Below, one piece after another: positions 245-34,000 of a stretch of DNA of 36,238 bases. The number at the start of each line of letters is the position of its first letter. Positions within the stretch are counted from its first letter, which is position 1. The notes under the pieces were generated by a model. The model was not told the DNA's origin, searched no databases, and saw nothing but the letters and a program-made list of their open reading frames with translations. The stretch is taken from the NCBI GenBank assembly GCA_010093605.1, contig MU004187.1, positions 1,620,018 through 1,656,255 of the forward strand, written 5' to 3'. A program made the position numbers and the translations under genes. Origin of the DNA: Lophium mytilinum. Taxonomy: Eukaryota.

Positions 245-248
245 GCGA

Positions 249-11589: not shown

Positions 11590-14161
11590 ATAGCTAAAGA
11601 ATTAGGTTAATATACTAGTTACTAATAACGCCTCCCTAATAATTAAAATAATAAGGAGTTTAACCTAAATAAATAGTTATTAAGTATAGACTCTAGTTAA
11701 GTAGACTATAATAGTAATTTAGAGCTAGATAAGCTAGATAACTACTATAGCTACTAGCCTTCCTATAGTAGCTGCTAACGCTCTAGACCTACTTAGAGAA
11801 AGGCTATAATACTTTTAGTAAACCTACTATATAATATATCTATATAGAGTAAGGCGGTATCTAATTTTACTAAGAATTTTAAAAGCTACTTAAGTTAAAT
11901 AAATATTATAGCTAGCTTAGGTCTAGCTTCTAAGATATAGCGCTAGATAGAAGCTAACTTATTTATATTAATAGAGAACTCTAAAGCGTATCTATAGATA
12001 AAATATCTCTTATAACTAGGCTAAAATAACTATAATAAAAATAATGCCTACTTAAATACTTAGTCTAAAATATATATACTTTTTATAAATATATAGAGTT
12101 ATATATTTAAAAAGTCTTTTATATTAGCTAAGTAGAAGTAAGTATATTAGATATTAATCTAGTATAAAGTCTATAAGAAATATAAGATGCAGGGTAGTAT
12201 TATTAAAAGTAATAAGAAGTAGAAGTAGTTTAAATTAGCTTTATCCGCGAAGTTAGTTATATTAGTAGGCCTTAGCTCTCTAATAAAATCCCTAGATATT
12301 ACTACCTAAAATACCCTATTTAAGCTCTAGCTATTATACGCAGTTCTTACTATAATATACTAGCTACTATAGTAGAAAAGTACTAGACGCCTTTTTACTC
12401 TCTATCTTATAAGATCTAGTAGTAAAGGCCTAGAGCTAAAAAACTATAGCTTTATAAAGTTTCTAGAAGCTATTAATAGAACTTTTATAGACTTTAACCC
12501 TCTAGAGTATATTATTATAGTTAATAGAACCTAGAAGTTAATAGAGAATAACTTCTATCTAACTACGCTATTAGAGGAAATAAAGAGTATATTTAAAGAA
12601 ATAGTACTTAGTTTTATAATAAAGAGCCTTAATATTAGAAAGGTAATATCTAAACTTAAGACTAGATATATATTAATTATTATTAATTATTAAATATTAC
12701 TACTAACTAATATATAGCTAGGTCTATACTTTCTTAAGTTTCCGCCCCCTAGTATCTACCCGGTTAAGAAACGCCCCTACTATAGTAAGCCTAAGGCTAC
12801 TATAGCTAAGGGTCTATCTAAACCTACCGCCGCTAATACTCTAGATAAAATAATTATTAACTTAACTATAAGTCTAGACATATATATAGCTAATATAAAT
12901 AGAGTTAATTTTACTATAAAGTAGAATAAAGAAAAGAAGTAGAAATAGCTAGTAGATATAGTAAAAGAAGAGAAAGAAAAAAAGAAGAAAGAGCTAGTAG
13001 AAATAGTAAAAGTAGAGAGAGAAAAGAAAGAGAAAGAGAAGAAGAAGAAAGAGTTAGTAGAGAAAGAGCTAGCGGAGAAAGCGCTAGTAGAGAAAGCGCT
13101 AGCAGAAATAGTAAAAGTAGAAAAAGAAAAAAAGAAGAAAGAAATAAAGAAGAAAGAGATAAAGAAGAGAGAGCTAGTAAATATAGCAATAGTAGAGAAG
13201 GCTAAGAAGTAGATAGAATAAAAGAAGAGAGAGCTAGCTAAGACTATAACTAAAGAGAAAGTAAAGAGGTAGAAATAGCTAGAAGAGATAGTAGAGTAAA
13301 AGAAATAAAGAAAGTAGAAACTACTAGTAGAGAAGAAGGTATAGAAGCTATAAATAGAGAAGAAAGTATAACTAATCTAATAGATACTTAATATTATCTA
13401 GCTATATACTAAATTAATATATAATTCTATTTAGCCTAGTATTATCTATAATAAGGTTATATAGTAGCTTAGAGCGCTTAGACTTAAAACTACTTAGTAC
13501 TTAACTATTTAAAAATAACTTTATACGCTTATAGTTACTATAAAGAGCGGCTAAACTATCTCTAGTAATACTTAAGTTATAGAGGATATAGTAATTAGTA
13601 GTATTAATATTATAGCTATACTTAAATTTAATATATATAGTCTTAGTAAAACTAAACTCTCTATAGATATAAATAAGATAATTATAGCTAATATAGAGAA
13701 GGTAGATACTATTAATATTACTACTATAATAGCTTTAATATTAAGCTCTATAAAAAATATCTTAGTAGTAGCATTTAAAAAGGTACTATAGTTTTTTAGT
13801 TTACCTCTAATATATAGGAATTTTTCTAGTAATATAACCTTTAAGCTACTAGAAATAACTACTAACCTAAAGATATATATAGCTCTATACTAGGTAGCTA
13901 GAATATATAGTATTATCTAAGATCTTACTAGTAGGGCGCGTAGGCTAATTTTTATAGATCTCTCTAGAATAGGAAAAACTCTATAAATATTAATAGTATT
14001 TACTACTTATACTAGAGAGGCTAGTATTAATACTCTATATTCTAGTAGTATTAAAGGCTATATTATTTAGCTTACTAAGAAGAGTCTACTAAATTAGACC
14101 TATAAGGAGGTAAAATACTAGCTAAATATTAAATATAAAAATAAGAATTTTAAGGTCTCTA
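11590..14161 (+). pseudogene. SNF2-family ATPase/helicase pseudogene, segment 1 (long N-terminus, KE-rich coiled coil, Q-motif, Walker A)
   Basis: Coding-like frame from inferred ATG (ATA) at 11590; probable intron ~12666-12717; KE-rich coil 12920-13380; (P)(H)(Q)VA(G)I at ~13885; (G)LIF(A)DL(P)(G)(M)GKTL(Q) at 13942-13986, resembling the SNF2 GILADEMGLGKTLQ motif; motif Ia-like KKSLL(D)(Q) at ~14077. Start position uncertain. Confidence 0.8.
12920..13380 (+). repeat. Low-complexity purine-rich coding repeat (EKEKKKKELAE-like units)
   Basis: Repeated gagaaagaaaaaaagaagaaagagctag units in frame with the helicase motifs. Confidence 0.8.
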
Positions 14162-14352
14162 TATTATAGCTATATAATTGCGTATAATACGTAACTAGAG
14201 GTTATATAATAGAGGCTCTATAGAACGGGTAAATATTGCTCCGCCCCTTAGGTTATTATAATATCTAATCTAGGAACCTCTTTCTCTCTTATATTTATCT
14301 TTTATTAATATTAATACTATTTAATCTAACGTTTTAACCTTAAGCCCTAACA
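14162..14352 (+). repeat. 5' LTR of the complete Gypsy element
   Basis: tattatagc...ccctaaca; direct repeat of 22520-22710. Confidence 0.97.
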
Positions 14353-14353
14353 T

Positions 14354-14363
14354 AAGATAAATA
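14354..14363 (+). promoter_or_regulatory. Putative self-priming primer-binding site
   Basis: aagataaata, 1 nt after the 5' LTR, is the reverse complement of tatttatctt at 14292-14301 inside the LTR; no TGG tRNA-type PBS. Confidence 0.6.
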
Positions 14364-14469
14364 CCCTTCTAGCTTCCGGGAGCAACGGAAGTAACCCCTA
14401 GAAAATTTTCCGTAATAGAGTACGCTCTTATAATAAGCTATAGTATAGAATACTTATACCTCTATATAG

Positions 14470-14950
14470 TAACTATTAGTAGAGTTGCGGACCCCTAATA
14501 AAGACTATACTAATATAGTATACTATTAGTAGCGCCGCGGGCCCCTAATAAAGTAATCTAACTATTATATATAAAGTTAGATAATAGACCTTATAACTAT
14601 AGTAGTGCTTATAAGCCCCTATAATAGAGGGGTAGTAATAGCACTCTAGAAAGTCCTTACTAATTCTTATTAATTACTTTAATAGCTCTATAACTTCTTT
14701 TTCTATTTACTATTACTATATAGAGACTAACGCCCGGAAAGCTTAGTATAGATAATAGCGTATGCGCGCGCCTAGTATTACTAATTAATTACTATTACTA
14801 TATAGAGACTAACGCCCGGAAAGCTTAGTATTAATAATAGCTAACCTACGCGTATACTTAGTATTATAGAATAAATATCTATAGACTACCTATTTTCTAT
14901 ATACTACCTATTTTCTATATACTATCTATTTTCTATATACTACCCGTTTT
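14470..14950. repeat. Cluster of direct repeats in the Gypsy 5' leader
   Basis: actattagtag...cccctaataaag twice (~14472, ~14522); ~41-bp actattactatatagagactaacgcccggaaagcttagtat twice (~14709, ~14791); 18-bp ctacctattttctatata tandem x3-4 (14886-14950). Confidence 0.85.
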
Positions 14951-15153
14951 ATAAATAGACTACCTAATATTATTATTTACTATAATTCTCTAGGTAGTCC
15001 CGCTACTAAGCGTAACTAGCGCTTCTTTTAAACCTTCTAGGCGCCGGCGTATATAGTAAATAATCTAAATTTAATAGGCCCTTATATATAAATTTAATAC
15101 CTTATCCCTTTAAGTTTTCTTTCTTCTATACTAACTTTTTTCTACCTCCTTAT

Positions 15154-17787
15154 ATAGCTAACCCTAATTACTATACTTTTAACCGCGCTAAAGCTCTATA
15201 GTTTAGTAACTCTGTCTCTAGTAGACGCTCTACTACTAGACGCCTATTTAGTAACGCTAATAGTATTTCTATTAACCCCCGCCGTATTATATTATATTAA
15301 GAGGGCGCCCTAAACTTATAGCACCTTCTTATAGAAGATAATAATAATAATATAATATAGATTAATTATAGATTATAGCCTTCTTTTATTTAGCTAGTAA
15401 ACCTGCCCTTCTAAGGCGCAACTTAGTCTTAGTTATAGATACTAGCTGCCACTTCTTAACTAGCTCTATCTATTAGACTAGTCCCTCTAGTAATACCTAT
15501 AAAACTATAATATTATTAGACTAAGTTTAGTACTATAGGCAAGCCTCTACTAATTACTCTAGCTCCTCTAACTATAGAGGAAACTATACTTCCGCTTTTC
15601 CGCGTTAGTAGCTATATACTAGGTAACTTTAATTTACCTAACGTTAATAATATAATTACCGCTCTTAATAATATAGCTGCCGCCTATAATAAGAACTTCT
15701 TATCTAACTTTAACTCCGCTAATAAATATAACTATTAAGAGGAAGAACGTTAGTTTAGTAATAATATAGATAATAAAGTTAATAAGCTTTAGATAGTATA
15801 TTAAGACATTACTATTAATACTTCTAATACTATAGTATACTATAATACTATCCCTAAAACTAAATAGTCCCGCAATACTAAATATCTAAGAATACTACCT
15901 ATTTATAGTATTTTCTCCCCTAATATATCTCTATTATAATACTAATCTACCCGCGTTAAATCTATTACTAGACTTAATACTTCTAACCTAGCCTAGTAAG
16001 CAGCGGGCATAGAATAGAGTAATAGGTACCGCACTATAATACACGCAGAGAATTATTAGCAGTTGCGTTTTATAATTATATAGCGCGTAAATAGCTCTAT
16101 CTTTAAGATGCGCTATAGAGACGGCGTTTACTAGTAATATAAACTATAAGTTCTATAGAACCTTATTAAAGACGTCTAACTTATACTAGAATAGTAGTAG
16201 AACCGCGTTATACTAGCTTACTAAGATAGTAATAACTATAAGTATAAAATAAATATTACAGTATAGAAATAAGACACTGCTAATATAACTATTAAGAAAC
16301 TAAATAAAAAGTATTTACTTACTAATAGTAAACTTAATAAGCTCTAGATGCAAGTCTATACCCTTAACTATAAGCTTAAGGCTAAATAAATAGAGTTAGC
16401 CCGCATACGTCGCCTATATAATAAGAAGCACGCTAACTTCTAAGCCTAAACCCGTAAGCTTAATAACCTTAAAGCTAGATATTAATAGGCCTTAATATAA
16501 ATTACCTAGCTTAAAGCTTAAGTCTAGTAGAATATATAAATAGAATAACCTAATAATCTATATATAGATAAATATACTACTAATTATAACTCTACTAATA
16601 ATACCTCTCTACCGCTACTAGTAGGACTATATACTCTTAACCTAGATAAGTTCTAGTATAACTGCGTTCTAGGATAATACTTTACTACTACTAGAGGTAG
16701 AGGTAGAGGTAGAGGTAGAGATAATCTAAACCTAAGCTAACCGGGCAGTTTTACTTAGCTATAGGCCTACGGACCCGTCTATCCTTAATTTAGATAAGGC
16801 CCTTAACCTAAGTATACCTACTTATAGAACTTTAAATTAGGAGCTTTAGTATATATAGCCTAGAAGAACTATCTAATCTACTTAGTCTAAGTAGACTAGT
16901 AGACCTATTCTATAGCTATAACTTAAATCTAACTTACTATTAGCTACTATAAGGGGCGTGCATATAAGGTTATAAAAGACTATAGTCTTCTTATATCTAC
17001 TAACCTATATTAATCTCTTAAGGAACTTATCTAAGATCTAGACGCTATATTCTAGAAGAGTAATACTATCTATTATAACTACCTTCTTAACTAGCTTAAT
17101 AGTAAGGGTATAAAATAGTAATATAATAAAAAAACGTTAGACTTTTTATAACGCCTTAATATTATTCTTAACAGGCTAAAGTACGGTAAAATTAATAACG
17201 GCCTTATAACTTAATACTATTACCTTAAGAAAATACTATGCACTAATCTTGCTAAATATATTAACTTTAGTTTATTAACCTAGCACTAGATAAAAGATAA
17301 TATTCTATATAAGGACTATTATTATATTTAACGCGAAAAATAAGCCTATAAAGAGCTCCTTACTATATAGATCTTAGTACGCTAATTAAATAATATATAT
17401 ATATAGAATAGCTATTATAATATAAACTATATTTAATATAAGTAGTTTATTACTAAGACTAATAACTATATTATAGTTAAGAAGACTACTATAGTTCTAT
17501 TACTAAGCGTCCTACTATATATTTATCTACACCTTAGTAAGAAAGAACGCTGCTTTAGCTGCTTTAAGAAGAACTACTATGCTGGCGACCCTAAATGCGC
17601 TATAGCTAGAAAGACTATAATAGAGGCTTAGCGTAATAAGCGCCTTGCCGCCGCTAGCATTAATAGTCTAGAACTTAACGCCTTTAACTATAGTAGTAAC
17701 TAAGAGTATTAGTATAAGTATAAATATAAGGATAAATAGAAATAAGATAATAAAGAAGTTTATTCTAATAGTTTAGAAAATACTTAA
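15154..17787 (+). pseudogene. gag of the complete Gypsy element
   Basis: One coding-like frame from inferred ATG to TAA 17785-17787; RG/GG repeat ~16693-16720; zinc knuckle CF(G)CF(E)KN(H)(H)AGDPKC at 17551-17598; acidic tail. Start inferred. Confidence 0.75.
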
Positions 17788-20700
17788 TCTCTAATAAAAG
17801 TTATTATTAGAGATAGTTAGAAGACACGCTAGCTTAAGCTCTTGCATATATCTAAGAGCTTAAGCTACCCCCTCTAGAACCCCCTAATATTAAACTTTTA
17901 GCTTACGCGGTTAGACTTACCCTATTATCTAGTAAATAGATAGACTTTAACTATAGAATTAAGACTTTAACTAGAATAGTTAAATCTATAGTTTTTATAG
18001 ACTCTAGATATAGTAGATTTATATTTATTTCTATAAGCTTTATAAAATACTATAAGCTTAATATCTATAAGGCTACTCCGCGTAATATTAAACTGCTAAA
18101 TAGTTCTACCTTAGTTATTAATAAAGTAGTAAAAGTTACTATATAGATTAAAGAATACTATAATAAATTCTAGGTACTTATCTATAATCTTAAAGGCTAT
18201 AATATTATTCTTAGTATAGGCTAGCTTATAATATATAATGCCTATATAAAATTTAGTACCTAGATAATATAACTAGACTTAAACTACTACTATTCTTAGT
18301 GCCTAGTTAATTATAAACTAGTCTATATCTAGTCTAAAGACTCTATTGCCCGCACTAGTAAACGCCTATTTTAGTAGAAGCTTAATACCTAACTTACTAC
18401 TTTTAAAGCGCTTAATATTAACGCAGTATCTAGTAATAAGTATTTATATAACACCTAGTAATTACTAGAGAAAGATACTATCTATATATAGCCTAAATAC
18501 TTTAAGTTAGCGCTCGCTAATAAGAAAGCTAAAGTATAGGCGCGCGCTAAAGGGCGCCCGTATAAATTAGGTAATGTTGTCTTAGATCTAGCTAATTTTA
18601 CTAATAACCTAGCGGCTATTAGTCTTTATATAATATTAAAAGACAACTAATAAAAATTCTTTAAGAAGATAGAGCGTAAACTAATAACCTGTAATAAACT
18701 TAAAGTATTAGTATCTATAGAATATTACGGCTTTCTTAATATATAGAACCTAAAGAAAGCTAATAAGCTACTACTACGCTGTAAAGCTAAAGACGGCACG
18801 GATATTAATTACTATATTAATATTAAACTAGGAACTAAGGCCCTAGCTTATAAAGTCTATAGTTTTTTATAAGATAAGATACTAGTTATTAAAACGTTTA
18901 TTAATAAGATATATAGAAAAGAATATATTTATAAAAGTAATAGTTAGTATACCGCTCTAGTAATTATTATTTATAAACCTAGAGGAGGCTTACGTATCTA
19001 TATTAACTACTATAGACTTAATGCAGTTACTATTAAGGCCTGTAATATACCTCTAGCTATAAAGAATACTCTTATACTTCTAAAATACGCTTAATACTAT
19101 ATAAAATTTAATATTATTGCCGCTTTTAATACTATTAGAATGCGGAAGGGTAATAAAAAGTATACGGCGTTTCTTATAAGGTATAGTTTATTTAAATTTA
19201 CTATCTTACCCTTTAGCCTATATAATGCCCTAGCAACCTTTTAGGCCTTTATTAATAATATACTCTTAGAGTACCTTAATAACTTCTATATAGCCTATCT
19301 TAATAATATTCTTATCTTTAGTAAAATATTAGAAGATTATATAGGCTATATTAAGAAGGTTCTCTAATAACTCTGCAAGGCCGGTCTCTTTCTTAATATT
19401 ACTAAGTATAAATTCTATAAATAAGAAGTTAAATACTTAGGGGTTATTATTAGCGTTAATAGCCTTAAAATGGACCCAGCTAAAGTTAAGATAGTTATTA
19501 ACTAGCCCTAGCTATAAAACCTACGCGATATATAAGCCTTTCTAGGCTTCTATAACTTCTATAGGCGGTTTATTATTACCTATTCTAATATTACAGGACC
19601 CCTTACTAGACTTACTAGGGTAGAGGTCTATAAGTAGTTCGCGTTTCTATAGTAAAAAGGCAGTTTAGAAGACTTCTCCTTTAAGTAAATAAAGTAGGCG
19701 TTTATTAACGCCCTCTAGATAGCTTACTTTAATCTAGATCTAGAAATATAGGTAGAATATAACGCATCTAATACTATTATAGTAGCTATACTATCTTAAA
19801 TATAGGCTAATAGCGTTTTATATTCTATTACGTTTATATCCTATTAGATAAGCGCAGCCTAACTTAACTACTAGATTTATAATAAAGAACTTCTAGTAAT
19901 TATCTACGCCTTTAAGAAATAGTATATAGAACTTACTAGCTATAGATATAGTAATTTAATTAAAGTTCTTTTAGATTACTATACCCTATAATACTTTATA
20001 GAAACTAAGCAGCTTAACTAATAATAGGCTAGATAGGCCGAGTTTCTTTTTAAATTTAACTTTTAAATTACTTACTAACTAGGCAAGGATAATAGTAAGG
20101 CTAATCTACTAACTAGACGCCTAGGTAATATACTAGATTAAGATAATAAACGCTATAAAATCTAATAATAAATAATTTTAAAGGACTATAACCTAGAACT
20201 AGAAATATATTACGCTATTAAACTAGTATATATTATAACTAACAGCGTTACCTATAATATAGTCTCTCTTGCAGTAATAATATATAACTTTAGTAAAGTA
20301 GAACTTAATTAGGGGGAGTCTTAGAATAACCTTAATTAAGAACTATAGAAGCTACTAACGCAGGGGGAGTTATAGAGTAACCCTATTAATAGTACTATAG
20401 AGTAAGACATTATAGATTATATACGGGAAGCTCTTATTAATAATATTATTAGTAACGCTATTAAAGACGCTATTAGAGCTAAGCTACGCCGCCTACTAAT
20501 AGATATTATTAAGAACTACAGCATTAAGCTTAAACTCTATAATTATATAATTTATAATAGTCTTATCTTTATTTAGAAGGACCGCCTATATATTTCTACT
20601 AAGGAGAAACTCTATTTAGCTATTATTAAGAGCCTCTATAAGCCCCCTCTAGTTAGTTATAGTAGAATAATATCTATATATAATTGCGTCTCTATATACT

Positions 20701-22505: not shown

Positions 22506-22517
22506 AGAGGGGGGAGA
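22506..22517 (+). promoter_or_regulatory. Polypurine tract
   Basis: agaggggggaga, 2 nt upstream of the 3' LTR. Confidence 0.9.
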
Positions 22518-22519
22518 TG

Positions 22520-22710: not shown

Positions 22711-22715
22711 CTCTA

Positions 22716-24106: not shown

Positions 24107-24549
24107 ATAAGTTGCTACCTATCTCTATCTATAATTAGTAATTAAATATAATGTAATTAAATTTACAGCACCTTAGAAATATAATCTAAGAAGGGCCTCT
24201 AGAGGCTACTTAAGGCCCTATAAATATTTATATGTAGTATTAGAGCTCTATAAGCTATACTAGTAGTATTATAGTAGAATTATATATTACAACCCCTATT
24301 ATATAGTATTATTAATAATAATAATAATAATAATAATAGGCACGAGTATTTCTATACCCTTCTATTATATATTAATACCCCCTAATATTAGTAGATATAT
24401 ACTCTTTCTACCCCTATTATTTTACTACCTTCTAATTAGCTTAGATAGGTGCTCTAGAGCCTCTAATTTACTCGCTTAATTTCCTTACTAAATCTAAATG
24501 CTCTCTCTAAATCCAGCGGCGTATAAACCTTATTCTCTACCTCTATACT

Positions 24550-27032
24550 ATACTTTCTCTATCTCTTACTATAGCTCTATAGCCTCTATAGCTAGCCTAT
24601 TATTCTATAGCTAAGAATATGCATACGGCGCTTTAGGCGCACGCCTTAGTGTAAGGCTATAGCTTAGTAAAGTTCTATACTAAATCTAATAAAGAGAAAG
24701 TAATTTAAAAAGTATAGTACTAGTACGCTTTTATAGGCTTCTATCTACCTATAAATTATATTTATAATATAGCTACTATAAAGAGCGGCTGTTCTATATA
24801 TAGAACTCTTACCCGCTAGCTAGAGAGTACCTAGATATAGTAAATAGTAGAGGCCTCTTACTACAGGCATAAACCTATACTTAAAGTATTAGCTTTACTA
24901 GAACTACAGCGCCTTAAGCGCACGGATAAGGTAAAGAAGCTTATTTATAATAACCTCTCTAGCGGCGGTGCGCCGTAGGCTATATATACTAAGCTACTTA
25001 AGAAGGGGGTAAATATTACTAAGAATAATATTATAAATAAGCGGAAATTATATAGAAAAGAACTTCTTAATAGCCTTACGCCTATCTAGGTACTACTCTA
25101 CACGTTAGAAATGTATAGTAGTAATAGAGAGGCGGGTAAGTTCTTCTATAGCTATTCTCTAGATAGTAATAAGCGTGTAGATTACCTCTTCTTTATATAT
25201 TCTTAGTCTATTAAGCTTCTTTAGTCTAACTATAATATTATTCTCCTTAATTACATGTATAAAACTAACTAGTTTAGTATACTATTACTCTACGTAACAG
25301 GTATTATATATATAGAAACTAGCTTTAAGATTATATATTATTTTATTCTAAGAGAGAAGAATCTAAACTATAACTAGGTAGTATAATAGCTTTATAAGCT
25401 CTTTTAAATATATTTACTACGCCTACGCGTTTTTCTAATAGATAAGAAAGCCGCGTTAAAGAAGGCCCTAAGAGCTAAGTAGCTAATAGTTCTATAGCTG
25501 CTCTATATATAGCATATTAATAAGAACTTTATTACTAAGCTAGCTAAGGTATATAAAGAGAAGCCTATATATAAGCTAGATAGCGTACTACCTGCGCCTA
25601 TATTAGATAAAGAGAAAGTAGCTATATAGAAAAAGAAATAGGAGAAAAAGAATGCATTTCTAGCCTGCTAGAACGCTCTAGTTAAGAAGGTTAATAAGAA
25701 TAAGTTTAAGAGTATATAGAAGAAGCTATAAGAGAACTATAAGAAAAGGCTAGAGCTAGTTAAGTATATAGATAAGAAGTAGTAGTTATATAGGCGGTAG
25801 TAGGCGTACTACTATATAAAGAGCACTTAGTACTTTAATACTATATAAGTAATTTTTCTTAATATTAAGATATCTAAATTTAATGCTTAAACTTTGCATA
25901 GGGTCTATATATATGCTAAATAAGTAGCGCTAAAGAGAATAAGAGTATAACTTAAAGAATAACTAAGAAATAAAGAAGTAGTAGAGGTATATAATGCTAA
26001 CTTAATTTCTTATAGTATTATATTACGGAATAAGGGCGGCCATAGCATGCTTAAGAAGTACCTCCAGGTCTCTACTAGCTACCTATTTAACGTTCTCCTT
26101 AATATACTTAACCTTATACTTAATAGTAAGGCTCTCTACCTAGATAAGAAGGCCGCGTAGTATATCTAATAGCCTTACAATATTAATATACCTAAATTCT
26201 ATAATCTAAAGTTTAAGATAGCACTATATATACTGCGCTTTCTTACACCTTAAGTATATAAAGTAAAGATAGCTAAGTACTAACTATAGAGCTATACTTA
26301 TATATTTAAGAGAATCTATAGCCTCCCTTATATATATACGCTGCATAATCGCCTTTACTAAGCGCTTAGTATTATTAAGAATAGTATTCTATATATTTAA
26401 CCTTAAGAGATTAATTACTATTAGTAGTTTAATTAGCCTAGTATTCTATAGCTAGTAATAGAGCTTTCTTTTATAAATATATAAGATCTAGAGGTTATTA
26501 TAGTTTATAAGGGCTGCCTAAAGAAGTAGAGAAGAGGCTACTATATAGATAATAGTATATAGAGAGATCTATTAAGATTTAAGCTTACTATAAGTATAAG
26601 TATATAGAGTAGACCTATAGGCATGCCTCTAGAATACATGCCGATAGCTTAGCCGCTAGAATAGCCTATTTCTATAGCCCCCCGTCTAGCTTCTATTACT
26701 TAGAGTGCTTCTTAGTCGGCCGCTACACTAGCTATTATAGAATTTAATAATTTACTTACTAATCCGCCTGAGTTTAAGTATATAGTTATAGCTAGGCCCC
26801 CCCCTATTACTATACCTACGCCTGTATCTACTACTGCATCTACTACTATACCTAAGAAGCGTAGCCGGCCGGCTAGTATAAAGAATAAGGCACCTAGAAA
26901 GAAGGTAGCACTATAGAAAGGGGCTGCGCAGCGTTATAATAGCGCTTATTCTAAGCCTTAGCTAGCTTCTTAGCCTTAGCTAGCTTCTTAGTCTTAGGCA
27001 GTGCCTGCGCTACTTTCTATTAAGAAGCTCTA
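24550..27032 (+). pseudogene. MULE transposase (FAR1-like N-terminus, DDE core, SWIM-like Cys/His motif, AT-hook-like tail), one intron
   Basis: LL(D)(C)(T)YKTN at ~25243; FL(T)DK(E)AALKKAL...L(C)I(W)HINKN at 25432-25527; (T)(S)RN(E)GGHSMLK at 26020; (G)LP(C)x(H) at ~26320; KKR(G)RP at ~26854. Ends approximate. Confidence 0.92.
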
Positions 27033-27254
27033 ATATTAGATAGCATTATATAATTAGTATATAGAGGCGTTAATAGATTAGAATAGCTAGAGAGGCGCGG
27101 CAGTAATATAGGGGGGCCAGGTTTAATATAGAGAGGCCGTAATAAGGTAAGAATTTAACTATTTTAGTATACTTATAGGTATATAGGTATATAGATAGTA
27201 ATATAATAGCCTATATATACTATAGAAAATAGAAAGTATATATAGTAAAATAGG

Positions 27255-27372
27255 TATACTATATAGCCTTACTATAACTATAGCCTTATATATAGCCTTA
27301 TATACTCTATAGCCTTATATAAGGCCTTACGTAAGGCTAACCTATATATATAGCCTTATCTATAGCCTTAAT
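27255..27372. repeat. Subterminal short repeats (tatagcctta-like) of the MULE
   Basis: Several tatagcctta / aggcctta units between the transposase and the right TIR. Confidence 0.7.
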
Positions 27373-27558
27373 AGGCTACTAGAAATAGTAAGAATATATA
27401 ATAAAATAGTAAGGCTATATAGCCTTTCTATTTTAAGCGCTAGAGTAGTAATCCAAGCCCTCTAGACTAATTAGAAGATTAGACGGGAGAAGAGTATATA
27501 TCTACTAATATTAGGGGGTGTTAATATATAATAGGAGGGTATAGAAATACTCGTGCCT

Positions 27559-29251
27559 ATAATAATACTACTAATAATACTAATAATAACTCTAAAACTA
27601 AACCTACTAACTAAAGACTAAGTAGAATATCTATACTAATATCTAAGTACTTATTAAAGAAGCCTATAGCATATAGAACTCTCTATAGAATAAACCTATA
27701 TTCTCTAACCCTAAGATAAATAACGCCCTTAAGTACCTCTAGAACTTCGCCGGGCGCGTACTAGCTAGCCTTTTAGGCACTGCGGAGGATCTATAATAAA
27801 CGCTATAGAGAAAGATAATAAAAATAATAGAGAAAATATAGAAGGGCGTATAGGCGCTATCTATATAAGAAATAACCTATATAGTAGTAACGGCGGTAGA
27901 AAGAAATAGTAAAACTATAGAAAATAGAGAGTATATAATATAGACTACCTATAAAATTACTATATATATTAAGGATAAGAAGAAACGCGCTATAATAAAT
28001 AAGAACTTAAATGTAACTATTATCTATAAGCTCTAAGTAGTAGAAGAGCCTAATATAATAAAGATCTATAGCATTAGAAAGCTCTAGAGTAGAGATATAA
28101 AGGCCTATATACTAGACGCAACCGCTAAGAAAGCCCTATTAAAGAAGAAGAAATAGATAAAGGTTCTAGGTAAAATAGTATAAATCTAACTACCTAAGGT
28201 CCTTCTAGAGGTGCATAGAGTACCTAAAGAGATGGACCTAAAGAATCTAATACTATAAAGTAGTATTATATAAGATAATAAGGTACTATATCTAGACCTA
28301 GCTATATATAAGATTATATAGAAGTACCTAAATTAGATCTAGGCTATTAGAAATAACCCTAAATAGTGCGCCTTATTAGCTATAGTTACTATAGATATAG
28401 AGGTAATAGTAAATAAGATTATAGATAGCGGGCTAGTATAGAATAGATATATACTAGAGGCTATAAAGTATAAGGTAGGCTTTATAGCTATCTAATACTT
28501 TTAATGCTAGAGCTATAGGCACGTTGCTAGATACTATAAGAAAAAGGTAGTATACGCGGCGTGCGCAGGAGCTTATAATATAAAATAATGCATAGAGGAG
28601 AGCATTAGAAAGTGCGCTAACTATAAGAGAAGCTATCTATTATATAGTGCGGCGTGCACTATAAGAAAGAATACTTAACTAAAAGCTAATATAAAGAGGT
28701 AGGTAGCACTAATCTACTATAGGGCTAATAATAGCTCTAATAATAATACTAATAATACGCCGGGTATAGTAATATTCTAATCTATAATAGAATTATAAGC
28801 TCTTAATATAGTAAATAGAAAGAGAAAGGCTACTAAGAATAGTAATATACTAGATAGTAGCACCCTAAAAAGAGTAGAACGCCCCCCTATATCTACTATA
28901 TTTACCGCGTATAAGGACCTAAAATAACTAAAGATAAATAGAGTGCTATAGTCTACCTATACTATATAGACTATCTAATTAATATATACTTTCTATTTAA
29001 TATAGTAGCCTAACTATAATAACCTATAGCCTTACTATAATAGCCCGCAGCCTTTCTATAGAACCCTGTAGCCTACCTATAAAATGCTATACTACTCTTA
29101 AATAATAACCTATAGTAATAACGCTAGACTATTATAATTTAATATAACTTAGGTACTATCTACCTAGAAAGAAGAGGCAGCAAGCTATTAGCTCTATACT
29201 AAGGCTAGCCGGGCTATAATAAATAACCCTAAAGACTCTATAGATACCTAA
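27559..29251 (+). pseudogene. LINE ORF1, copy 2 (portion after the MULE; first codons at ~24248-24337)
   Basis: Three CCHC knuckles at 28493-28657; in-frame TAA at 29249-29251. Confidence 0.85.
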
Positions 29252-31785
29252 TATTAGGGCAACCTAATATACTTACTATTATATAGTATAATATTAATAA
29301 GAGCTAAGAGACCTAAAGGGAGTTCCTTAAGAAGATAGAGGCGGCCTAGCTCTAGCCGTTAGTACTAGCTATATAAGAACTATAGAAGAATACCTAGAAA
29401 TATACCTTACTATATATAAAATTATACTACCTACTATATAGAGAAAGCCTAAAAGCTAGAATATATATATATATTAATAAGTGCCTAAACCTAGGCTAAT
29501 AGACTATAGAGTACTACTTACTAAATCTTATTACTCTCTCCCTCTAGGCCGGGGGAGAGGATATTTAAATTTATAATATCTATAACCTAAAGCTATATAG
29601 AATTATAGCTACGCTACCCCCTATACTATATAAGAAGGTAGAGTATATACTTATAGGCGATATAAATCTATACTACCTATTCTAGAAAGAAATATAGGTA
29701 ATTAGTATAGAAGAGTAAGCTAAGAAGCTTATTTATATTATAATAGAAGTAGGCCTAACTTTAGCTATAGAGGAGGGTATAGAAATATAGGCGAGAGAAA
29801 TATAGTAGACTATAATTAACCTTATATTTATATCTAAATAGCTAATAGAATAAATAACATCCTACATAGTTTAAAAGAAGTAGAACTATTACTTAGACTA
29901 CCACCCTATATACACAGAATTTAATATTACACTACTACTAGCAACTAAATAGCCCCTACGCCGGCTATAGAAGAATATTATATAGAAGGATATATAGAAG
30001 TATCTTATAGCCTAGCTAGTTAAGCTAGAAAACTAGAATAACCCCCTAGATAATAAAAAAGAAGAAGACCTAGATAACTTTATACGCATTCTCTACTAAC
30101 TTATTAAAATTACTATTAATACTATAGTACTAATAGTATAGCCCTTATAGCACGCATTACTATTCTAGACTAAGGAGTACTTAAAGAAGGTATATAAGAC
30201 TAGGCGGGCGTATAGAATATAGTACTTATTATACTCTATAAAGGACTAGATATTATACTAGATCTAGTATAACTATAAGAAAAGAGCTATATAGAAAGAG
30301 AGTACTAAGATATAGCGCTATATAGTAGAGAAGGTAATAAATAACTCTAAAGGGGTATAGAAACTAGCTAAATAGGGCTATATAGTTAGAAAGGAATTAA
30401 GGCCCCCTTCTTAATTTCCCCCCCTTTTCTAGCTAGGTAACTCTACCCTATATATAGATAATAAGATAAAAGTATATATACTTACTAAATAGTTCTTTCT
30501 ACTACTAGTAGAAGCTAACCTATCTAATCTAGAAGGGTTCTAATATCTAGAACTATATACTACTTCTATAGAAGTTACTATAGAAGATATACTCTTAGCA
30601 CTAATAGAAATTACGCTAGATAAGGCCTCTAGAATTATAGAAATTATAAATAGATTTCTAAAGAAGTATAAAATATAACTAGTACTAGTACTTGCCTACT
30701 TCTTTATAAAGTACCTATATAGAGAACACTACCCCTATCTATTTAAAGAATTAATTATAGTAGTTCTATATAAACCCTAGAAAGCGTTCTATATAATAGT
30801 AAAAGCCTATAGGCCTATTACACTGCTAGAAATAATAGGTAAGCTATTTAAACGCATTATAGCTAAGAGGCTCTTTAAGATAGTAGAGGAAAAGGGCATA
30901 CTACTACCTAGCTAAATAGAGGCACGGCTAGAACACTCTATATAGATAGTACTTAAACTTTTTATAGAATAAATCTATACTATATAGAAAGGAAACCTAT
31001 AGCTTATAGTATTACTTCTTAGCCTAGATATATTAGAAGCGTTTAATTAAGTCTTATATAAATAAATAATATATAATCTATAGGTCTAGAGTATACTAGA
31101 GTAGATAATAAGATTTACTAGGTCCTTTCTATAAGACTATATAACTAGGCTCTCTATAGAAAGCTATATAGTAGAACTAATTATAGTTACTATAGGTATT
31201 CTATAGGGCTCCTTTCTATTACCTATTCTCTTTCTTTTCTTTACTAGTATACTACTGCTAACCCTTTAGAATAGTAATATAATAGCCTATAGGTTTATAG
31301 ATAATATAAATATTCTTATATATAGTAGAACTATAGAGGCGAACTATAGAGCTATTAAGAGAGCCTATAATAGATGCATAGAATAGGTAAGAAAGTATAG
31401 CGTAGTATTTATACTAGATAAATATTACCTAATATACTTTATAAGAGCCTATAAAGAAGTTAATCTAAGAGCTATAGTTAATATATAAGGCTTTATAGAG
31501 GGCCCTATAATAGACCTAAGAGTACTAGGGATATAGGTAGACTTAAAGCTTAAATAGGGCCCGCACATTAGTATTATAAAGAATAAAGCTATAACCTAGA
31601 TAGGGGCACTTACGCGGCTTATAGTATCTACCTAGGGCGCTAGCTTTAGAAAAGCACGCCTAATATACTTAGTAGTAGTCCGGCCTGCTATTATATATAG
31701 ATGCACTACCTAGTATACTATACTAGGCATGCTAGAGTAGCTTAGTAAGATAAAAATTAAGTAGCTTAAAATAACCTAGAACTAA
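29251..31785 (+). pseudogene. LINE ORF2 (APE endonuclease + reverse transcriptase), runs into a gap
   Basis: (Q)YN(V)NKS at 29284, VLAI(Q)E(P)(W) ~29362, GD(M)NL(H)(H)P ~29656, (S)D(H)HPI ~29893, YRPITLL 30808, GI(P)(Q)GS ~31195, (G)F(V)D(D) at 31291, in frame with 29251. Confidence 0.95.
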
Positions 31786-32677
31786 NNNNNNNNNNNNNNN
31801 NNNNNNNNNNNNNNNNNNNNNNNNNNNNNNNNNNNNNNNNNNNNNNNNNNNNNNNNNNNNNNNNNNNNNNNNNNNNNNNNNNNNNNNNNNNNNNNNNNNN
31901 NNNNNNNNNNNNNNNNNNNNNNNNNNNNNNNNNNNNNNNNNNNNNNNNNNNNNNNNNNNNNNNNNNNNNNNNNNNNNNNNNNNNNNNNNNNNNNNNNNNN
32001 NNNNNNNNNNNNNNNNNNNNNNNNNNNNNNNNNNNNNNNNNNNNNNNNNNNNNNNNNNNNNNNNNNNNNNNNNNNNNNNNNNNNNNNNNNNNNNNNNNNN
32101 NNNNNNNNNNNNNNNNNNNNNNNNNNNNNNNNNNNNNNNNNNNNNNNNNNNNNNNNNNNNNNNNNNNNNNNNNNNNNNNNNNNNNNNNNNNNNNNNNNNN
32201 NNNNNNNNNNNNNNNNNNNNNNNNNNNNNNNNNNNNNNNNNNNNNNNNNNNNNNNNNNNNNNNNNNNNNNNNNNNNNNNNNNNNNNNNNNNNNNNNNNNN
32301 NNNNNNNNNNNNNNNNNNNNNNNNNNNNNNNNNNNNNNNNNNNNNNNNNNNNNNNNNNNNNNNNNNNNNNNNNNNNNNNNNNNNNNNNNNNNNNNNNNNN
32401 NNNNNNNNNNNNNNNNNNNNNNNNNNNNNNNNNNNNNNNNNNNNNNNNNNNNNNNNNNNNNNNNNNNNNNNNNNNNNNNNNNNNNNNNNNNNNNNNNNNN
32501 NNNNNNNNNNNNNNNNNNNNNNNNNNNNNNNNNNNNNNNNNNNNNNNNNNNNNNNNNNNNNNNNNNNNNNNNNNNNNNNNNNNNNNNNNNNNNNNNNNNN
32601 NNNNNNNNNNNNNNNNNNNNNNNNNNNNNNNNNNNNNNNNNNNNNNNNNNNNNNNNNNNNNNNNNNNNNNNNNNNNN
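31786..32677. other. Assembly gap
   Basis: N run. Confidence 1.
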
Positions 32678-33572
32678 TATACTATAGCGGGCCTTAGCGC
32701 CCCCTCTTAACTAGTACTTAGTATAGATAGTTAGCTTTAGGTCTCTACTATATACTCTATAATATATACTTTCTATATACTTTCTATCCCTTATAGCTCT
32801 TCTATTTTTAAATAGCCTATCTACTTTATAACAGTATATATACGCGGCTTTCTCCCTTCTACTATTAGTTAGTTATACTATAAGGGCTTATACTTACTAT
32901 AAGCGGCTATATACTTTCTAATTATAGACTATAAACTATATACTCTATACTCTTAGCCCTTCTATAGCTATTAGCTATACTATAGAGGCTTATATATGCT
33001 ACTATAGCTATAAACTCTATATAGCTGCTTATAGCCCTTCTACTCTTATAGCCTACCTATAAACTATATACTTTCTATATACCTCTACTATATACTACCT
33101 ATATACTATATAGCTTTTCTATCTCTAATAGCCTACACGGCTACTATTTATTTTACCTTATTACCTTAGATAAAGGCCCCGTAAGCGCACTACTTATATG
33201 CAGGCCCTTATACTAATTCTATACTAGCCTTGCATCTAGATTCTACTTAGCCTAAACCTAGAAGAATAATAATAAACCTTTCTAGATAGATATAGAAAGA
33301 CGCATCTTAATAGCTTATTCTATAGTAGTTTTTATAGACCTACTATATATTCTCTATAGTAAAATATAAAGAAAAAGGGCGCCTAACACTAGATATAATA
33401 GAGGATAAGGTTTTTACCTAAACGCTGCCTAGTAGTAAATAGTTTCCCCTTATAAATTAGCCTAGATAGAACAGCTATATAGACCCTAACAGGAGCTACA
33501 CTAGTATAATAGAATTTAATAATAATAATAATTAGTAATTATTATCTAATAAACTAATATAATTAATACTAG

Positions 33573-34000
33573 ATAATTATAAAGACTATACTAACTAAAA
33601 AGCTTATATAGTTATATTTATTGCTAATAGTTAAGTAATAGAAGTAATTTAATACTAGCTTTAAGTATAATTAAGATAATCTAGTAGCTATTAATATTCT
33701 AGTTGCAAACTAGAAGACTAGAGAAGTAGAAGGCTCTAACTTTACTTTTTAATATATATGCATAATAGTTATAGAGCTATAGACTATATCTAGCCTTAAG
33801 GTATAAATTATATCTAGAGTATAGTAGAAGAACTAGAAGTCTAATAAAATATATAGTATTATTCTTACCTATATAGGGGGTAATAACCTAGTAGATATAC
33901 TAGCTTAGTTCTATATAGTTAATAATAATAAGTTTATATATAAGGTTATATAAAGTATACTAAAAAAAAAGGAAAACTAAGAGACTATTAGTACTAAGGT
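33573..34000 (+). pseudogene. SNF2-family helicase pseudogene, segment 3 (helicase C-terminal domain); 3' end undetermined
   Basis: After acceptor AG at 33571-33572: (Q)FN, I(D)ILVAN, motif V-like T(G)(G)VEGSNFT, E(P), motif VI-like (E)V(Q)I(V)SRV(W)(R)KN(Q)K. In frame with segment 2 after splicing. Confidence 0.75.

What the first reader, a model, noticed from the sequence alone, without database searches (positions are those of the whole stretch)
11590..34000. Hidden, divergent SNF2-family helicase gene split over 22 kb and RIPped to saturation: candidate cargo or core gene of a large mobile element
Seen: three segments carry SF2/SNF2 motifs in the right order (Q-motif, ADxxGxGKT, Ia, DExH, ATP, GKL, V, VI). 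The frame is restored exactly when the Gypsy element plus one TSD is removed and when the LINE-containing intron is spliced. The gene is as CpA/TpG-depleted as the transposons along its whole length, including kilobases away from the inserts. Known: RIP needs a duplicated sequence and leaks into single-copy neighbours only partially. Inference: this helicase was itself multicopy, e.g. part of a giant transposon (Starship-like cargo), a segmental/subtelomeric duplication, or an undescribed SNF2-bearing mobile unit. Its very long N-terminus and non-canonical motifs do not look like a housekeeping remodeler.
Basis: partly seen in the sequence, partly recalled or inferred. Interest (0 to 1): 0.8.

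Follow-up and report, generated by a model that had tools for sequence, protein, structure and literature searches.

The report
RIP-destroyed multicopy helicase-like gene relic
A long fungal gene that probably encoded a SNF2-like helicase once existed in many copies, was mutated beyond recognition by the fungal repeat-mutation defence (RIP), and was later split by three nested transposon insertions; it is a dead relic of a kind already described in a related fungus.

Summary
One reading frame runs through 11590-14161, 22716-24144 and 33542-34078. It is restored exactly by removing a Gypsy element with a 5-bp target duplication and a LINE with a 14-bp one. The LINE is an insertion, not an intron: a contig of a public run joins 24144 directly to 33542. 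The segments are more CpA/TpG-depleted (3.5-9.3 per kb) than the inserted transposons (14.5-20.5), with no decay with distance. Public contigs show 2-17 distinct variants per listed site, so the unit was multicopy.

The helicase identity is weaker. The raw translation hits nothing in Pfam, PDB or 1.84 billion proteins. A RIP-aware profile comparison, built here from bacterial helicases, ranks the region above all 156 decoy chunks of the window for SNF2 and ResIII profiles. It does not for RecQ, DEAD or PIF1. It recovers Q-like motif, I, Ia, Ib, DExH, III, the SNF2-type block IV and a possible VI; motif V is not supported.

No tyrosine recombinase or element boundary was found. A close precedent exists: the RIP-degraded 26-kb X3X3R8 repeat of Stagonospora nodorum, which carries Rad5/SNF2-like helicases. 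Verdict: real, moderately interesting, a new member of a known kind.

The parts
11048..11589 (+). Hyper-RIPped flank upstream of the frame. It lies between a 10-N gap and segment A and has the same composition as the helicase segments.
   Evidence: GC 27.1%, CpA+TpG 5.5 per kb. Summed contig depth in X1 is 3561, like the rest of the unit. No frame preference.
11590..14161 (+). Segment A of the relic ORF. The frame signal starts at about 12190. It holds the long N-terminal part and the start of the ATPase core.
   Evidence: Stop density by frame. CpA+TpG 3.5 per kb. 2-14 distinct X1 contigs per listed variable site.
12913..13376 (+). K/E-rich stretch with a 15-nt (5-codon) periodic repeat inside segment A. 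It looks like a charged coiled-coil region and gives spurious profile hits.
   Evidence: Direct repeat families D1 and D2 with spacings in multiples of 15. Top decoy scores for the DEAD profile fall here.
13885..13986 (+). Q-like 'PYQ..G' motif and Walker A (motif I). The observed residues read IDLSRIGKTL*, which RIP reversal allows to be (A)DLSGMGKTLQ.
   Evidence: RIP-aware local alignment to the bacterial SNF2 profile scores 30.2 bits, against a permutation null of 18.0 sd 2.3, with 1 of 200 permutations reaching it. The ResIII profile aligns the same block.
14059..14109 (+). Motif Ia candidate: ..II*LTKKSLLN*TYKE, of the '(P)xSLLxNWxxE' type.
   Evidence: Aligned in both the SNF2 and ResIII chains. 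Not significant on its own.
14162..22710 (+). Gypsy LTR retrotransposon inserted into the ORF. LTRs lie at 14162-14352 and 22520-22710. The TSD CTCTA lies at 14157-14161 and 22711-22715.
   Evidence: LTR pair 91.5% alike over the 189 nt that align. Pfam: RVT_1 2.6e-14, RT_RNaseH_2 9.7e-13, RT_RNaseH 1.3e-9, SH3_Tf2-1 1.2e-5. TSD read.
22716..24144 (+). Segment B of the relic ORF. Candidate motifs: Ib (22862-22885, IIISAETF); II (22985-23008, AVFFNKFY, reversible to AVFFDEFH); III (23249-23263, LIVIL, reversible to LTATP); and the SNF2-type block before and including IV (23999-24073, GKLKKIRSIV*YI*AKKKKILIIS).
   Evidence: Block IV scores 21.7 bits, with 1 of 300 permutations reaching it in the restricted search. 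The ResIII chain gives Ib, II and III. CpA+TpG 4.9 per kb. The frame continues across both joins.
24145..33527 (+). LINE-like non-LTR retrotransposon inserted into the ORF. It has a 14-bp TSD (24131-24144 and 33528-33541) and a (TAA)n-like 3' tail. It contains a nested MULE and a masked N run (31786-32677).
   Evidence: The TSD occurs exactly twice in the window. RVT_1 scores 27.3 bits, below the 29.6 cut-off. The 5' part recurs at 9463-11037. An empty-site contig in X1 runs from 24144 into the letters of 33542-33567.
24334..27558 (+). MULE DNA transposon nested in the LINE. Boundaries are approximate. Its ~100-bp terminal inverted repeats lie at 24307-24406 and 27490-27588.
   Evidence: Inverted match 90% alike. 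The MULE transposase domain scores E 1.3e-4, 22.8 bits, below the 27.6 cut-off. The LINE copy at 9463-11037 is colinear across the insertion.
33542..34078 (+). Segment C of the relic ORF. It holds a candidate motif V (33690-33749) and motif VI (33804-33827, *IISRV**, reversible to QIISRVRR). It ends at a masked N run.
   Evidence: The frame is continuous with B. The ResIII chain aligns VI. Segment C alone is not significant against lobe 2 of the SNF2 profile: 41 of 500 permutations reach the local score and 17 of 500 the Forward score.
34964..36238 (+). Hyper-RIPped tail after the N run (34079-34963). The frame that continues segment C has the fewest stops, so the ORF or the unit probably goes on to the end of the window.
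   Evidence: 36 stops in 424 codons, against 68 and 59 in the other + frames; one antisense frame has 31 of 424. GC 24.8%, CpA+TpG 6.3 per kb.

Best explanation
This is the fossil of a repeat family whose unit carried one very long ORF. At least 1300 codons are visible, and there are probably more beyond the masked stretch. The ORF encoded an SF2 ATPase/helicase of the SNF2/Rad5-like (or closely allied ResIII-type) kind, behind a long N-terminal region with a charged coiled-coil-like repeat.

Proposed history:
1. The unit became multicopy in this fungus.
2. RIP then mutated all copies to saturation: GC about 26%, and almost no CpA or TpG left.
3. The dead copy in this window was later hit by a Gypsy element and by a LINE. 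The LINE itself carries a nested MULE.

Nothing here is functional now.

Shown: the continuous frame, the two target-site duplications, the empty LINE site in another copy, the multicopy state, and stronger RIP than in the inserts.

Inferred: the helicase identity (moderate support), the SNF2 subfamily (weak to moderate support), and how the unit multiplied. By analogy with X3X3R8, I think it most likely multiplied as part of a larger repeated, possibly mobile, multi-gene unit.
For: Structure.
- Gypsy LTRs and the CTCTA TSD and its Pfam domains.
- The LINE's 14-bp TSD occurs exactly twice in the window.
- An X1 contig runs from 24144 straight into the 26 letters of 33542-33567.
- The frame is kept across both joins: 7.5% stops against 14.8% and 15.8%. 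It probably continues after the N run: 36 of 424 against 68 and 59.

Multicopy.
- 44% and 43% of sampled 31-mers of seg A are in runs X1 and X2.
- At the nine listed sites 11815, 12741, 12919, 13779, 13922, 14125, 23459, 23528 and 23543, 2-14 distinct X1 contigs (X2: 5-17, none with the variant at 23459) cover the place. Most carry the less-RIPped letter (T>C or A>G).
- Summed X1 depth is 2000-5900 on the helicase bins, 2850-4970 on Gypsy-internal bins, 5300-8550 on LINE bins and 430-1060 on MULE bins.
- A contig joins 12086 to the MULE end at 27417 (all).

RIP. CpA+TpG per kb is 3.5, 4.9 and 9.3 in segs A, B and C, against 14.5-20.5 in the inserts, with no decay.

Helicase identity, by RIP-aware marginal scoring against profiles built here from bacterial loci.
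- SNF2 local score 30.2 bits, against a permutation null of 18.0 sd 2.3 (1 of 200). This covers the Q-like motif and motif I.
- A colinear block IV scores 21.7 bits (1 of 300).
- The Forward score has z 6.2 (0 of 500), whereas the naive translation has z -0.1.
- Chain score of the helicase part against 156 equal-length six-frame decoy chunks of the same window: 0 of 156 decoys reach it for SNF2 and for ResIII under all three RIP models. For RecQ the counts are 18, 42 and 31 of 156; for DEAD 11, 9 and 18; for PIF1 5, 8 and 7.
- hhalign P-values: ResIII 0.0013, SNF2 0.026, DEAD 0.2, RecQ 0.43.
- 16 of the 20 best pairwise references are SNF2, where 51 of 115 references are SNF2.

Precedent. A RIP-degraded multicopy 26-kb repeat with Rad5/SNF2-like helicase genes is described in S. 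nodorum (PMC3017866, passages read).
Against: No standard search sees a helicase in the raw translation.
- Pfam finds 0 helicase families at E<=1 in all six frames of 11000-36238 and at E<=0.1 in 1-11037, and 0 at E<=10 for the four in-frame pieces.
- PDB gives 0 hits for seg C and 1 unrelated hit at E 2.2 for seg B.
- The word-based protein search gave 0 of 7999 scored candidates at E<=10.
- HMMER over 1.84 billion representatives gave 0 hits at E<=0.001.

The margins over the best decoys are thin.
- SNF2: 56.0 against 54.3, 48.1 against 42.6, 40.2 against 36.2.
- In single 400-codon chunks, other places of the window score as high or higher: 33.1 bits for a minus-strand chunk.

Parts of the core do not align.
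- The motif II-III zone and seg C are not significant against the SNF2 profile.
- The SNF2 and ResIII chains place II and III differently.
- The spacings II-III (about 80 aa) and III-IV (about 270 aa) are unusually long.

Controls.
- Real helicase genes RIPped in silico at CpA/TpG keep 279-767 bits to their own family profile even when read naively, and a distant SNF2 (RapA) keeps 68-84. This ORF is therefore either far more decayed than CpA-only RIP or only distantly related to the profiles.
- All profiles are bacterial. No fungal SNF2, Rad5 or TLH sequence could be brought in.
Confidence: 0.65

Rival explanations
1. The ORF is the helicase (with or without a transposase part in the long N-terminus) of a helicase-encoding DNA transposon such as AcademH or KolobokH, or of an undescribed element. 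The unit multiplied by its own transposition.
For: Copy number and summed depth are like those of the Gypsy and LINE families. There is a very long single ORF with about 740 codons before the ATPase core. AcademH, KolobokH and Helitron helicases are reported as common TE-borne DEAD/Helicase_C domains in fungi (PMC10799480, passages read). The ResIII-type profile scores slightly better than SNF2.
Against: No transposase domain, TIR or TSD of the unit itself was found: there is no repeat between the flanks and no Pfam hit. The DEAD profile does not score: 11, 9 and 18 of 156 decoys reach it. According to PMC10799480, AcademH is low-copy in fungi. The AcademH paper itself could not be read. The motif I context (D..G.GKT.Q) and the 'GKL..(K)ILI(F)S' block fit SNF2 better.
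Confidence: 0.12
2. It is a member of a subtelomeric, telomere-linked helicase gene family (RecQ-like TLH). Such families are multicopy, very AT-rich and RIP-affected in several ascomycetes.
For: Such families are documented. M. graminicola has 13 copies with a 3,480-bp CDS at 34.7% GC (PMC4522978, passages read). S. nodorum has the subtelomeric repeat X26 (PMC3017866). The ORF here is multicopy and hyper-RIPped.
Against: The bacterial RecQ profile gives no signal: z -0.2 by permutation; 18, 42 and 31 of 156 decoys reach the score; hhalign P 0.43. Walker A reads GKT, not the GKS I recall for RecQ. No telomere repeat was looked for or noticed in the window. The power of this test is limited, because fungal TLH proteins are far from bacterial RecQ.
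Confidence: 0.07
3. There never was a helicase. The segments are an old non-coding or unrelated coding repeat, and the motifs are what a flexible RIP reversal can find in TA-rich DNA by chance.
For: All standard searches are blank. Decoy chunks of the same window reach 42-55 bits in the chain test, close to the observed 48-61. A decoy at 7801-9462 gives a 41.6-bit ResIII chain in a frame full of stops. Motif V is not supported.
Against: The region ranks first of 157 for two related profiles under three RIP models, and not for three other helicase profiles. The best blocks are the two most family-specific ones, they are colinear, and they lie in the one frame with half the stop density. G-K-T, the DExH candidate and the LTxTP candidate need only RIP-type changes: CpA/TpG ones, and for the middle residue of motif III a CpT-type one.
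Confidence: 0.13
4. A single-copy host gene was RIPped by leakage from the transposons that landed in it.
For: Three transposons lie inside the gene.
Against: The gene segments are 2-5 times more CpA/TpG-depleted than the inserts and show no decay over 2.4 kb. Many distinct contigs cover each site, and another copy lacks the LINE.
Confidence: 0.02

Closest known systems
X3 / X3X3R8 repeat family of Stagonospora (Parastagonospora) nodorum SN15 (Hane and Oliver 2010, PMC3017866; passages read, supplements not opened)
   Same: Both are multicopy, RIP-degraded repeats whose origin is hidden from ordinary similarity searches and which derive from Rad5/SNF2-like helicase genes. X3X3R8 is a large unit (26 kb) of several genes, and many of its copies are pseudogenes full of RIP stops.
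   Different: No sequence comparison with X3 or the SNOG genes was possible here. No Rad6/UBC remnant, tandem second helicase or 26-kb structure was shown in the window. X3X3R8 still has nine copies with gene models, whereas this copy is saturated. The organism of the window is not known to me.
Telomere-linked RecQ helicase gene families (TLH; for example 13 copies in M. graminicola, PMC4522978; X26 in S. nodorum)
   Same: Multicopy helicase genes with very low GC that are subject to RIP.
   Different: The RecQ profile gives no signal. The motif I context and block IV are SNF2-like. No link to a telomere is shown.
Helicase-encoding DNA transposons AcademH and KolobokH (as cited in PMC10799480 and PMC10045372; original paper not held)
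   Same: A repeat family carrying a long ORF with an SF2 helicase.
   Different: No transposase, ends or 9-10 bp TSD of the unit were seen. The DEAD-type profile does not score. AcademH is reported as low-copy in fungi.
Starship giant transposons (DUF3435 tyrosine recombinase 'captain' plus cargo)
   Same: A large repeated unit with accessory genes in Pezizomycotina would fit a cargo gene.
   Different: No DUF3435 hit in any frame of the window. None of the 12 listed papers that hold two of the three terms Starship, SNF2 and DUF3435 holds SNF2 (listing only). Copy number here looks far higher than I recall for Starships.
Helitrons (Rep plus Pif1-like SF1 helicase)
   Same: Multicopy fungal elements with one very long ORF ending in a helicase.
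   Different: The PIF1 profile gives no signal: z 0.6 by permutation, and 5, 8 and 7 of 156 decoys reach the score. The motifs here are SF2-type (DExH, LTxTP).

Membership tests
SNF2 family (Pfam SNF2_N + Helicase_C) | Significant match to the SNF2_N profile | tested here: inconclusive
   Raw translation: no hit at E<=1 or at E<=10. A de-RIPped sequence could not be sent to Pfam. My own bacterial SNF2 profile with RIP-aware scoring gives local 30.2 bits (1 of 200 permutations), chain rank 1 of 157 under 3 models, and hhalign P 0.026.
SNF2 family (Pfam SNF2_N + Helicase_C) | Walker A in the context (A)DxxGxGKT(L/I/V)Q, preceded by a YQ..G motif (consensus taken from the profile built) | tested here: met
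   Observed LY*VARI...IDLSRIGKTL* at 13885-13986. RIP reversal allows PYQ..G and ADLSGMGKTLQ. This block scores 27.8 bits.
SNF2 family (Pfam SNF2_N + Helicase_C) | DExH box followed after about 25-30 residues by LTGTPxQN | tested here: inconclusive
   The DExH candidate AVFFNKFY (reversible to DEFH) at 22985-23008 and the LTxTP candidate at 23249-23263 are found only with the ResIII profile. They lie about 80 residues apart. The SNF2 profile does not align them significantly.
SNF2 family (Pfam SNF2_N + Helicase_C) | Block 'S.KL..L..lL....g.KvLiFSQ' leading into motif IV | tested here: met
   GKLKKIRSIV*YI*AKKKKILIIS at 23999-24073 scores 20.5-22.8 bits, with 1 of 300 permutations reaching it, and is colinear with motif I.
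SNF2 family (Pfam SNF2_N + Helicase_C) | Motifs V and VI (GG.GLNL..A..VI..D..WNP; QA.DR.HRIGQ) | tested here: inconclusive
   Seg C against lobe 2: 41 of 500 permutations reach the local score and 17 of 500 the Forward score. Two mutually exclusive placements of V exist (1384-1415 or 1484-1502 in the joined frame). The VI candidate *IISRV** needs two-step RIP of CGN codons. Part of the gene is masked by N (34079-34963).
X3X3R8-like repeat (S. nodorum) | Multicopy, RIP-degraded unit containing Rad5/SNF2-like helicase gene(s) | tested here: inconclusive
   Multicopy state and RIP are met. The helicase class is only SNF2/ResIII-like. The Rad5 subfamily features that I recall (HIRAN, RING) could not be tested with a profile. 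By eye, no Cys/His pattern of a RING (read as Y after RIP) lies between III and IV.
X3X3R8-like repeat (S. nodorum) | Linked Rad6/ubiquitin-conjugating enzyme gene and a tandem second helicase | not testable with these tools
   No eukaryotic UBC profile could be brought to the script machine. The raw-translation Pfam scan shows none. The window ends 1.3 kb after the masked stretch.
Starship | DUF3435 tyrosine recombinase at one end of the element | tested here: not met
   No DUF3435 hit in six frames of the whole window, at E<=1 for 11000-36238 and E<=0.1 for 1-11037. Heavy RIP or the window limits could hide it.
Helitron | Pif1-like SF1 helicase after a Rep domain | tested here: not met
   RIP-aware PIF1 profile: z 0.6 (49 of 200 permutations reach it). 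5, 8 and 7 of 156 decoys reach the chain score.
Telomere-linked RecQ helicase | RecQ-family helicase core | tested here: not met
   Bacterial RecQ profile: z -0.2; 18, 42 and 31 of 156 decoys reach the score; hhalign P 0.43. The power of this test for divergent fungal TLH proteins is limited.

The most novel reading that the evidence does not exclude
The helicase is not cargo. It is the core enzyme of an undescribed, once highly successful class of fungal mobile or self-amplifying unit: an SNF2/Rad5-like ATPase with a long coiled-coil N-terminus. S. nodorum X3X3R8 would be a less decayed relative. The class would have escaped all repeat classifications because RIP erases it.
Probability: 0.15. 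Interest if true: 0.75.

Novelty: new member of a known kind. Interest (0 to 1): 0.4.

Why it matters
It shows that RIP-saturated 'unclassified' AT-rich DNA can still be read as a gene, using three things: nested target-site duplications, frame continuity and RIP-aware profiles. It also shows that a helicase-bearing unit reached transposon-like copy numbers in a second fungus.

If such SNF2-like units prove to have defined ends, they would be a new kind of fungal mobile element. If not, they are one more example of amplified gene clusters destroyed by RIP, which matters for how AT-isochores are built.

The copy itself is dead and has no function today.

Tried and rejected
Searches that gave nothing.
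- No whole genome is held for the window, so paralogues, a de-RIP consensus and flanks of other copies could not be studied.
- Raw translation with X at stops: Pfam on six frames of the whole window and on four in-frame pieces; PDB sequences; the word-based protein search; and HMMER over 1.84 billion representatives with seg B. None gave a helicase hit.
I did not pursue it.

Methods that failed or were too weak.
- A profile of 300 sampled RIP-reversed versions of the frame found nothing in 55 long frames read from four E. coli stretches; RapA, if its frame was among them, was not in the listed matches.
- The first bacterial SNF2 profile run against those sampled versions gave only biased hits through the K/E-rich region.
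- The Forward score has a high null (about 50 bits), so I rely on the decoy test.
- Single 400-codon chunks were too noisy.
- A ResIII and SNF2 'hit' at 8100-10400 turned out to be a chance chain in a stop-rich frame.
- A pairwise outlier, DEAD-box protein L171 at z 6.7, is probably a low-complexity match; I did not check it.

Ideas rejected.
- The first DExH guess, 'D[Q/W]VH' near 23150, was dropped in favour of AVFFNKFY at 22985-23008.
- By eye, no RING-like Cys/His pattern lies between III and IV.

Literature.
- The AcademH paper is not held.
- X3X3R8 occurs in one paper only.
- None of the 12 listed papers that hold two of the terms Starship, SNF2 and DUF3435 holds SNF2.

Not usable as evidence.
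- Expression: no RNA holder was listed.
- Parts of the stretch without listed contig pieces are not evidence of absence.
- No structure or complex prediction was tried, because a stop-riddled pseudogene cannot be folded sensibly.

Full report
**What the window is.** The whole 36 kb is RIP-type fungal DNA. TpA/ApT is 1.6-2.6 in all 34 of the 36 1-kb bins that were scored, and GC is 24-41% in those bins. There are three N runs: 11038-11047, 31786-32677 and 34079-34963.

**The two interruptions are transposon insertions.**

*Gypsy element.*
- A direct repeat pair at 14162-14350 and 22520-22708, 91.5% alike, marks LTRs.
- Reading the ends places the LTRs at 14162-14352 and 22520-22710, with a polypurine tract before the 3' LTR.
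- The 5-bp duplication CTCTA lies at 14157-14161 and 22711-22715.
- Between the LTRs, Pfam finds RVT_1 (2.6e-14), RT_RNaseH_2 (9.7e-13), RT_RNaseH (1.3e-9), SH3_Tf2-1 and Integrase_H2C2.

*LINE-like element.*
- It starts at 24145. Its first 1.6 kb recurs at 9463-11037 (90-91% alike).
- It has a weak RVT_1 match (27.3 bits, below the 29.6 cut-off) and ends in a TAA-rich tail.
- It is flanked by the exact 14-mer ATAATTAGTAATTA at 24131-24144 and 33528-33541. These are the only two matches in the window, and 0 of 100 shuffles gave two.
- A MULE with ~100-bp inverted ends is nested in it at about 24334-27558.
- One contig of run X1 runs from 24144 straight into 26 letters that equal 33542-33567. 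Another copy therefore lacks the LINE.

**One frame runs through the three pieces.**
- From about codon 300 on it stays the lowest + frame in 11 of 12 100-codon blocks, the ones at both joins included; the exception lies in the K/E-rich repeat. The first 200 codons show no preference.
- One antisense frame is equally poor in stops (7.0%), so this measure alone is weak.
- The same phase has the fewest stops after the N run: 36 of 424, against 68 and 59. The ORF or unit probably continues to the window's end.

**RIP is stronger in the host unit than in the inserts.** CpA+TpG per kb:

| Part | CpA+TpG per kb |
|---|---|
| Seg A | 3.5 |
| Seg B | 4.9 |
| Seg C | 9.3 |
| Upstream flank | 5.5 |
| Tail | 6.3 |
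| Gypsy | 14.5 |
| This LINE | 14.9-17.6 |
| MULE | 20.5 |
| Other LINE copy | 36.2 |

Six 400-bp bins of seg A give 0-7.5 with no trend away from the Gypsy junction. Leakage from the inserts is excluded.

**The unit was multicopy.**
- Runs X1 and X2 (one sample) hold 44% and 43% of the sampled words of seg A. Three air-metagenome runs hold 5-6%.
- Laid at 80% likeness or more, the nine listed variable sites in segs A and B are covered by 2-14 distinct X1 contigs (X2: 5-17, none with the variant at one site). Most carry the less-RIPped letter.
- Summed X1 depth is 2000-5900 on helicase bins, 2850-4970 on Gypsy-internal bins, 5300-8550 on LINE bins and 430-1060 on MULE bins. The tool warns that this is not a copy number.
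- One contig joins 12086 to the MULE end at 27417, which is another copy with another insertion.
- Air-metagenome contigs lie on segs A and B at about 85-92% identity.

**Is it a helicase?** The raw translation, with X at stops, gives nothing.
- Pfam finds no helicase family.
- PDB gives no hit for seg C and one unrelated hit for seg B.
- The word-based search gave 0 of 7999 scored candidates at E<=10.
- HMMER over 1.84 billion representatives gave 0 hits at E<=0.001.

Changed sequences may not be sent to the tools, so I tested RIP reversal on the script machine.

*Method.*
- For every codon I computed the distribution of possible pre-RIP residues. Model 1 lets each TpA derive from CpA, TpG or TpA. 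Models 2 and 3 let any T derive from C and any A from G, with context-dependent weights.
- I scored these distributions against profiles built from real proteins fetched here:
  - 45 bacterial SNF2 cores (plus E. coli RapA);
  - 20 RecQ;
  - 20 ResIII;
  - 24 DEAD;
  - 9 PIF1.

*Results against permutations.*
- The first SNF2 profile gives a local score of 30.2 bits against a null of 18.0 sd 2.3 (1 of 200). The naive translation scores 19.4.
- The aligned block is 'LK.Y.A.Y*VA..' plus 'IFIDLSRIGKTL*' against 'L.AELRDYQQEGL...ILADDMGLGKTVQ'.
- A second, colinear block is 'GKLKKIRSIV*YI*AKKKKILIIS' against 'SAKLELLMEML..GRRILLFS'. It scores 21.7 bits (1 of 300 in the restricted search).
- The Forward score has z 6.2 (0 of 500), against z -0.1 for the naive reading.

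*Results against real RIPped DNA.* I also used all six frames of the window, cut into 156 chunks of the same length, as decoys. Chain scores of the helicase part:

| Profile | Model 1 | Model 2 | Model 3 | Decoys reaching it |
|---|---|---|---|---|
| SNF2 (observed / best decoy) | 56.0 / 54.3 | 48.1 / 42.6 | 40.2 / 36.2 | 0 of 156 each |
| ResIII (observed / best decoy) | 60.9 / 55.2 | 57.6 / 47.3 | 46.5 / 40.7 | 0 of 156 each |
| RecQ | – | – | – | 18, 42, 31 of 156 |
| DEAD | – | – | – | 11, 9, 18 of 156 |
| PIF1 | – | – | – | 5, 8, 7 of 156 |

Several of the best decoys overlap the same ORF.

*Other comparisons.*
- hhalign agrees: P is 0.0013 for ResIII, 0.026 for SNF2, 0.2 for DEAD and 0.43 for RecQ.
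- 16 of the 20 best pairwise references are SNF2, where 51 of 115 references are SNF2.

*Motif layout.* The ResIII chain lays out a full SF2 order in one frame:
- PYQ at 13885;
- GxGKT, ending at 13980;
- Ia at 14059-14109;
- Ib IIISAETF at 22862;
- II AVFFNKFY, reversible to AVFFDEFH, at 22985-23008;
- III LIVIL, reversible to LTATP, at 23249-23263;
- IV at 23999-24073;
- VI *IISRV**, reversible to QIISRVRR, at 33804-33827.

*Limits.*
- Margins over the best decoys are small.
- Single 400-codon chunks elsewhere score as high.
- A stop-rich decoy gives a 41.6-bit chain.
- The motif II-III zone and seg C are not significant against the SNF2 profile.
- The two profiles place II and III differently.
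- The spacings are long.
- In the control, real genes RIPped in silico keep 279-767 bits to their own family even when read naively, and RapA keeps 68-84. This relic is therefore far more decayed than CpA-only RIP (GC 26%, CpG also depleted), or it is only distantly related to bacterial models.

I conclude that an SF2 ATPase of the SNF2/ResIII type is likely, at roughly 0.75. SNF2 proper stands at about 0.5-0.6.

**What it is compared with.**
- *X3X3R8.* Hane and Oliver (PMC3017866; passages read) described X3X3R8 in S. nodorum. It is a 26-kb multicopy, RIP-degraded repeat derived from a cluster with tandem Rad5/SNF2-like helicase genes, a Rad6/UBC gene and unknown ORFs. This is the closest known kind. 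I could not compare sequences.
- *Telomere-linked RecQ helicases.* Such families are a known alternative (PMC4522978). The RecQ profile gives no signal.
- *Helitrons.* These are unlikely, because the PIF1 profile is blank.
- *AcademH and KolobokH.* Their helicases (PMC10799480; PMC10045372) cannot be excluded. The original paper is not held.
- *Starships.* No DUF3435 domain is seen in the window.

**Verdict.** The multicopy inference is right, the intron is wrong, SNF2 membership is plausible but unproven, and the nature of the amplifying unit is open. It is a new member of a known kind and of moderate interest.

Noticed in passing
window 1-7500, minus strand: A second, different Gypsy element: RVT_1, RNase H and SH3_Tf2-1 remnants at about 500-3000. 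It is much less RIPped than the rest (GC 38.6%, CpA+TpG 33.5 per kb).
   Followed up: partly
window 9463-11037: A second copy of the 5' 1.6 kb of the LINE, cut off by a 10-N gap. It is colinear across the place where the MULE sits in the other copy. It is less RIPped (36 CpA+TpG per kb) than the copy inside the helicase relic (15-18).
   Followed up: partly
window 24334-27558: Contigs of X1 and X2 join 24499 to 26934, 24518 to 27021 and 24448 to 27416. The genome therefore seems to hold internally deleted (MITE-like) derivatives of this MULE.
   Followed up: no
window 8000-9462: A stretch with the same extreme RIP state as the helicase unit (GC 28.6%, CpA+TpG 6.2 per kb), with no coding frame and no domain hit. 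It may be more of the same old unit, separated from it by the LINE copy and the gap.
   Followed up: partly
window ~12186-12195: One of only two ATG codons in the frame, directly followed by CAG. This is a spot where TpG and CpA both escaped RIP, just where the frame signal begins, so it is a possible original start codon.
   Followed up: no
window 31786-32677 and 34079-34963: Two N runs of 892 and 885 bases. The second hides about 295 codons of the relic ORF, possibly with part of helicase lobe 2. Its length is a multiple of three, and the frame is kept across it.
   Followed up: partly
window 11292-14087 and 22716-24019: Air-metagenome runs X3 and X4 hold short contigs that are about 85-92% identical to the helicase segments. 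Related copies therefore occur in airborne material.
   Followed up: no
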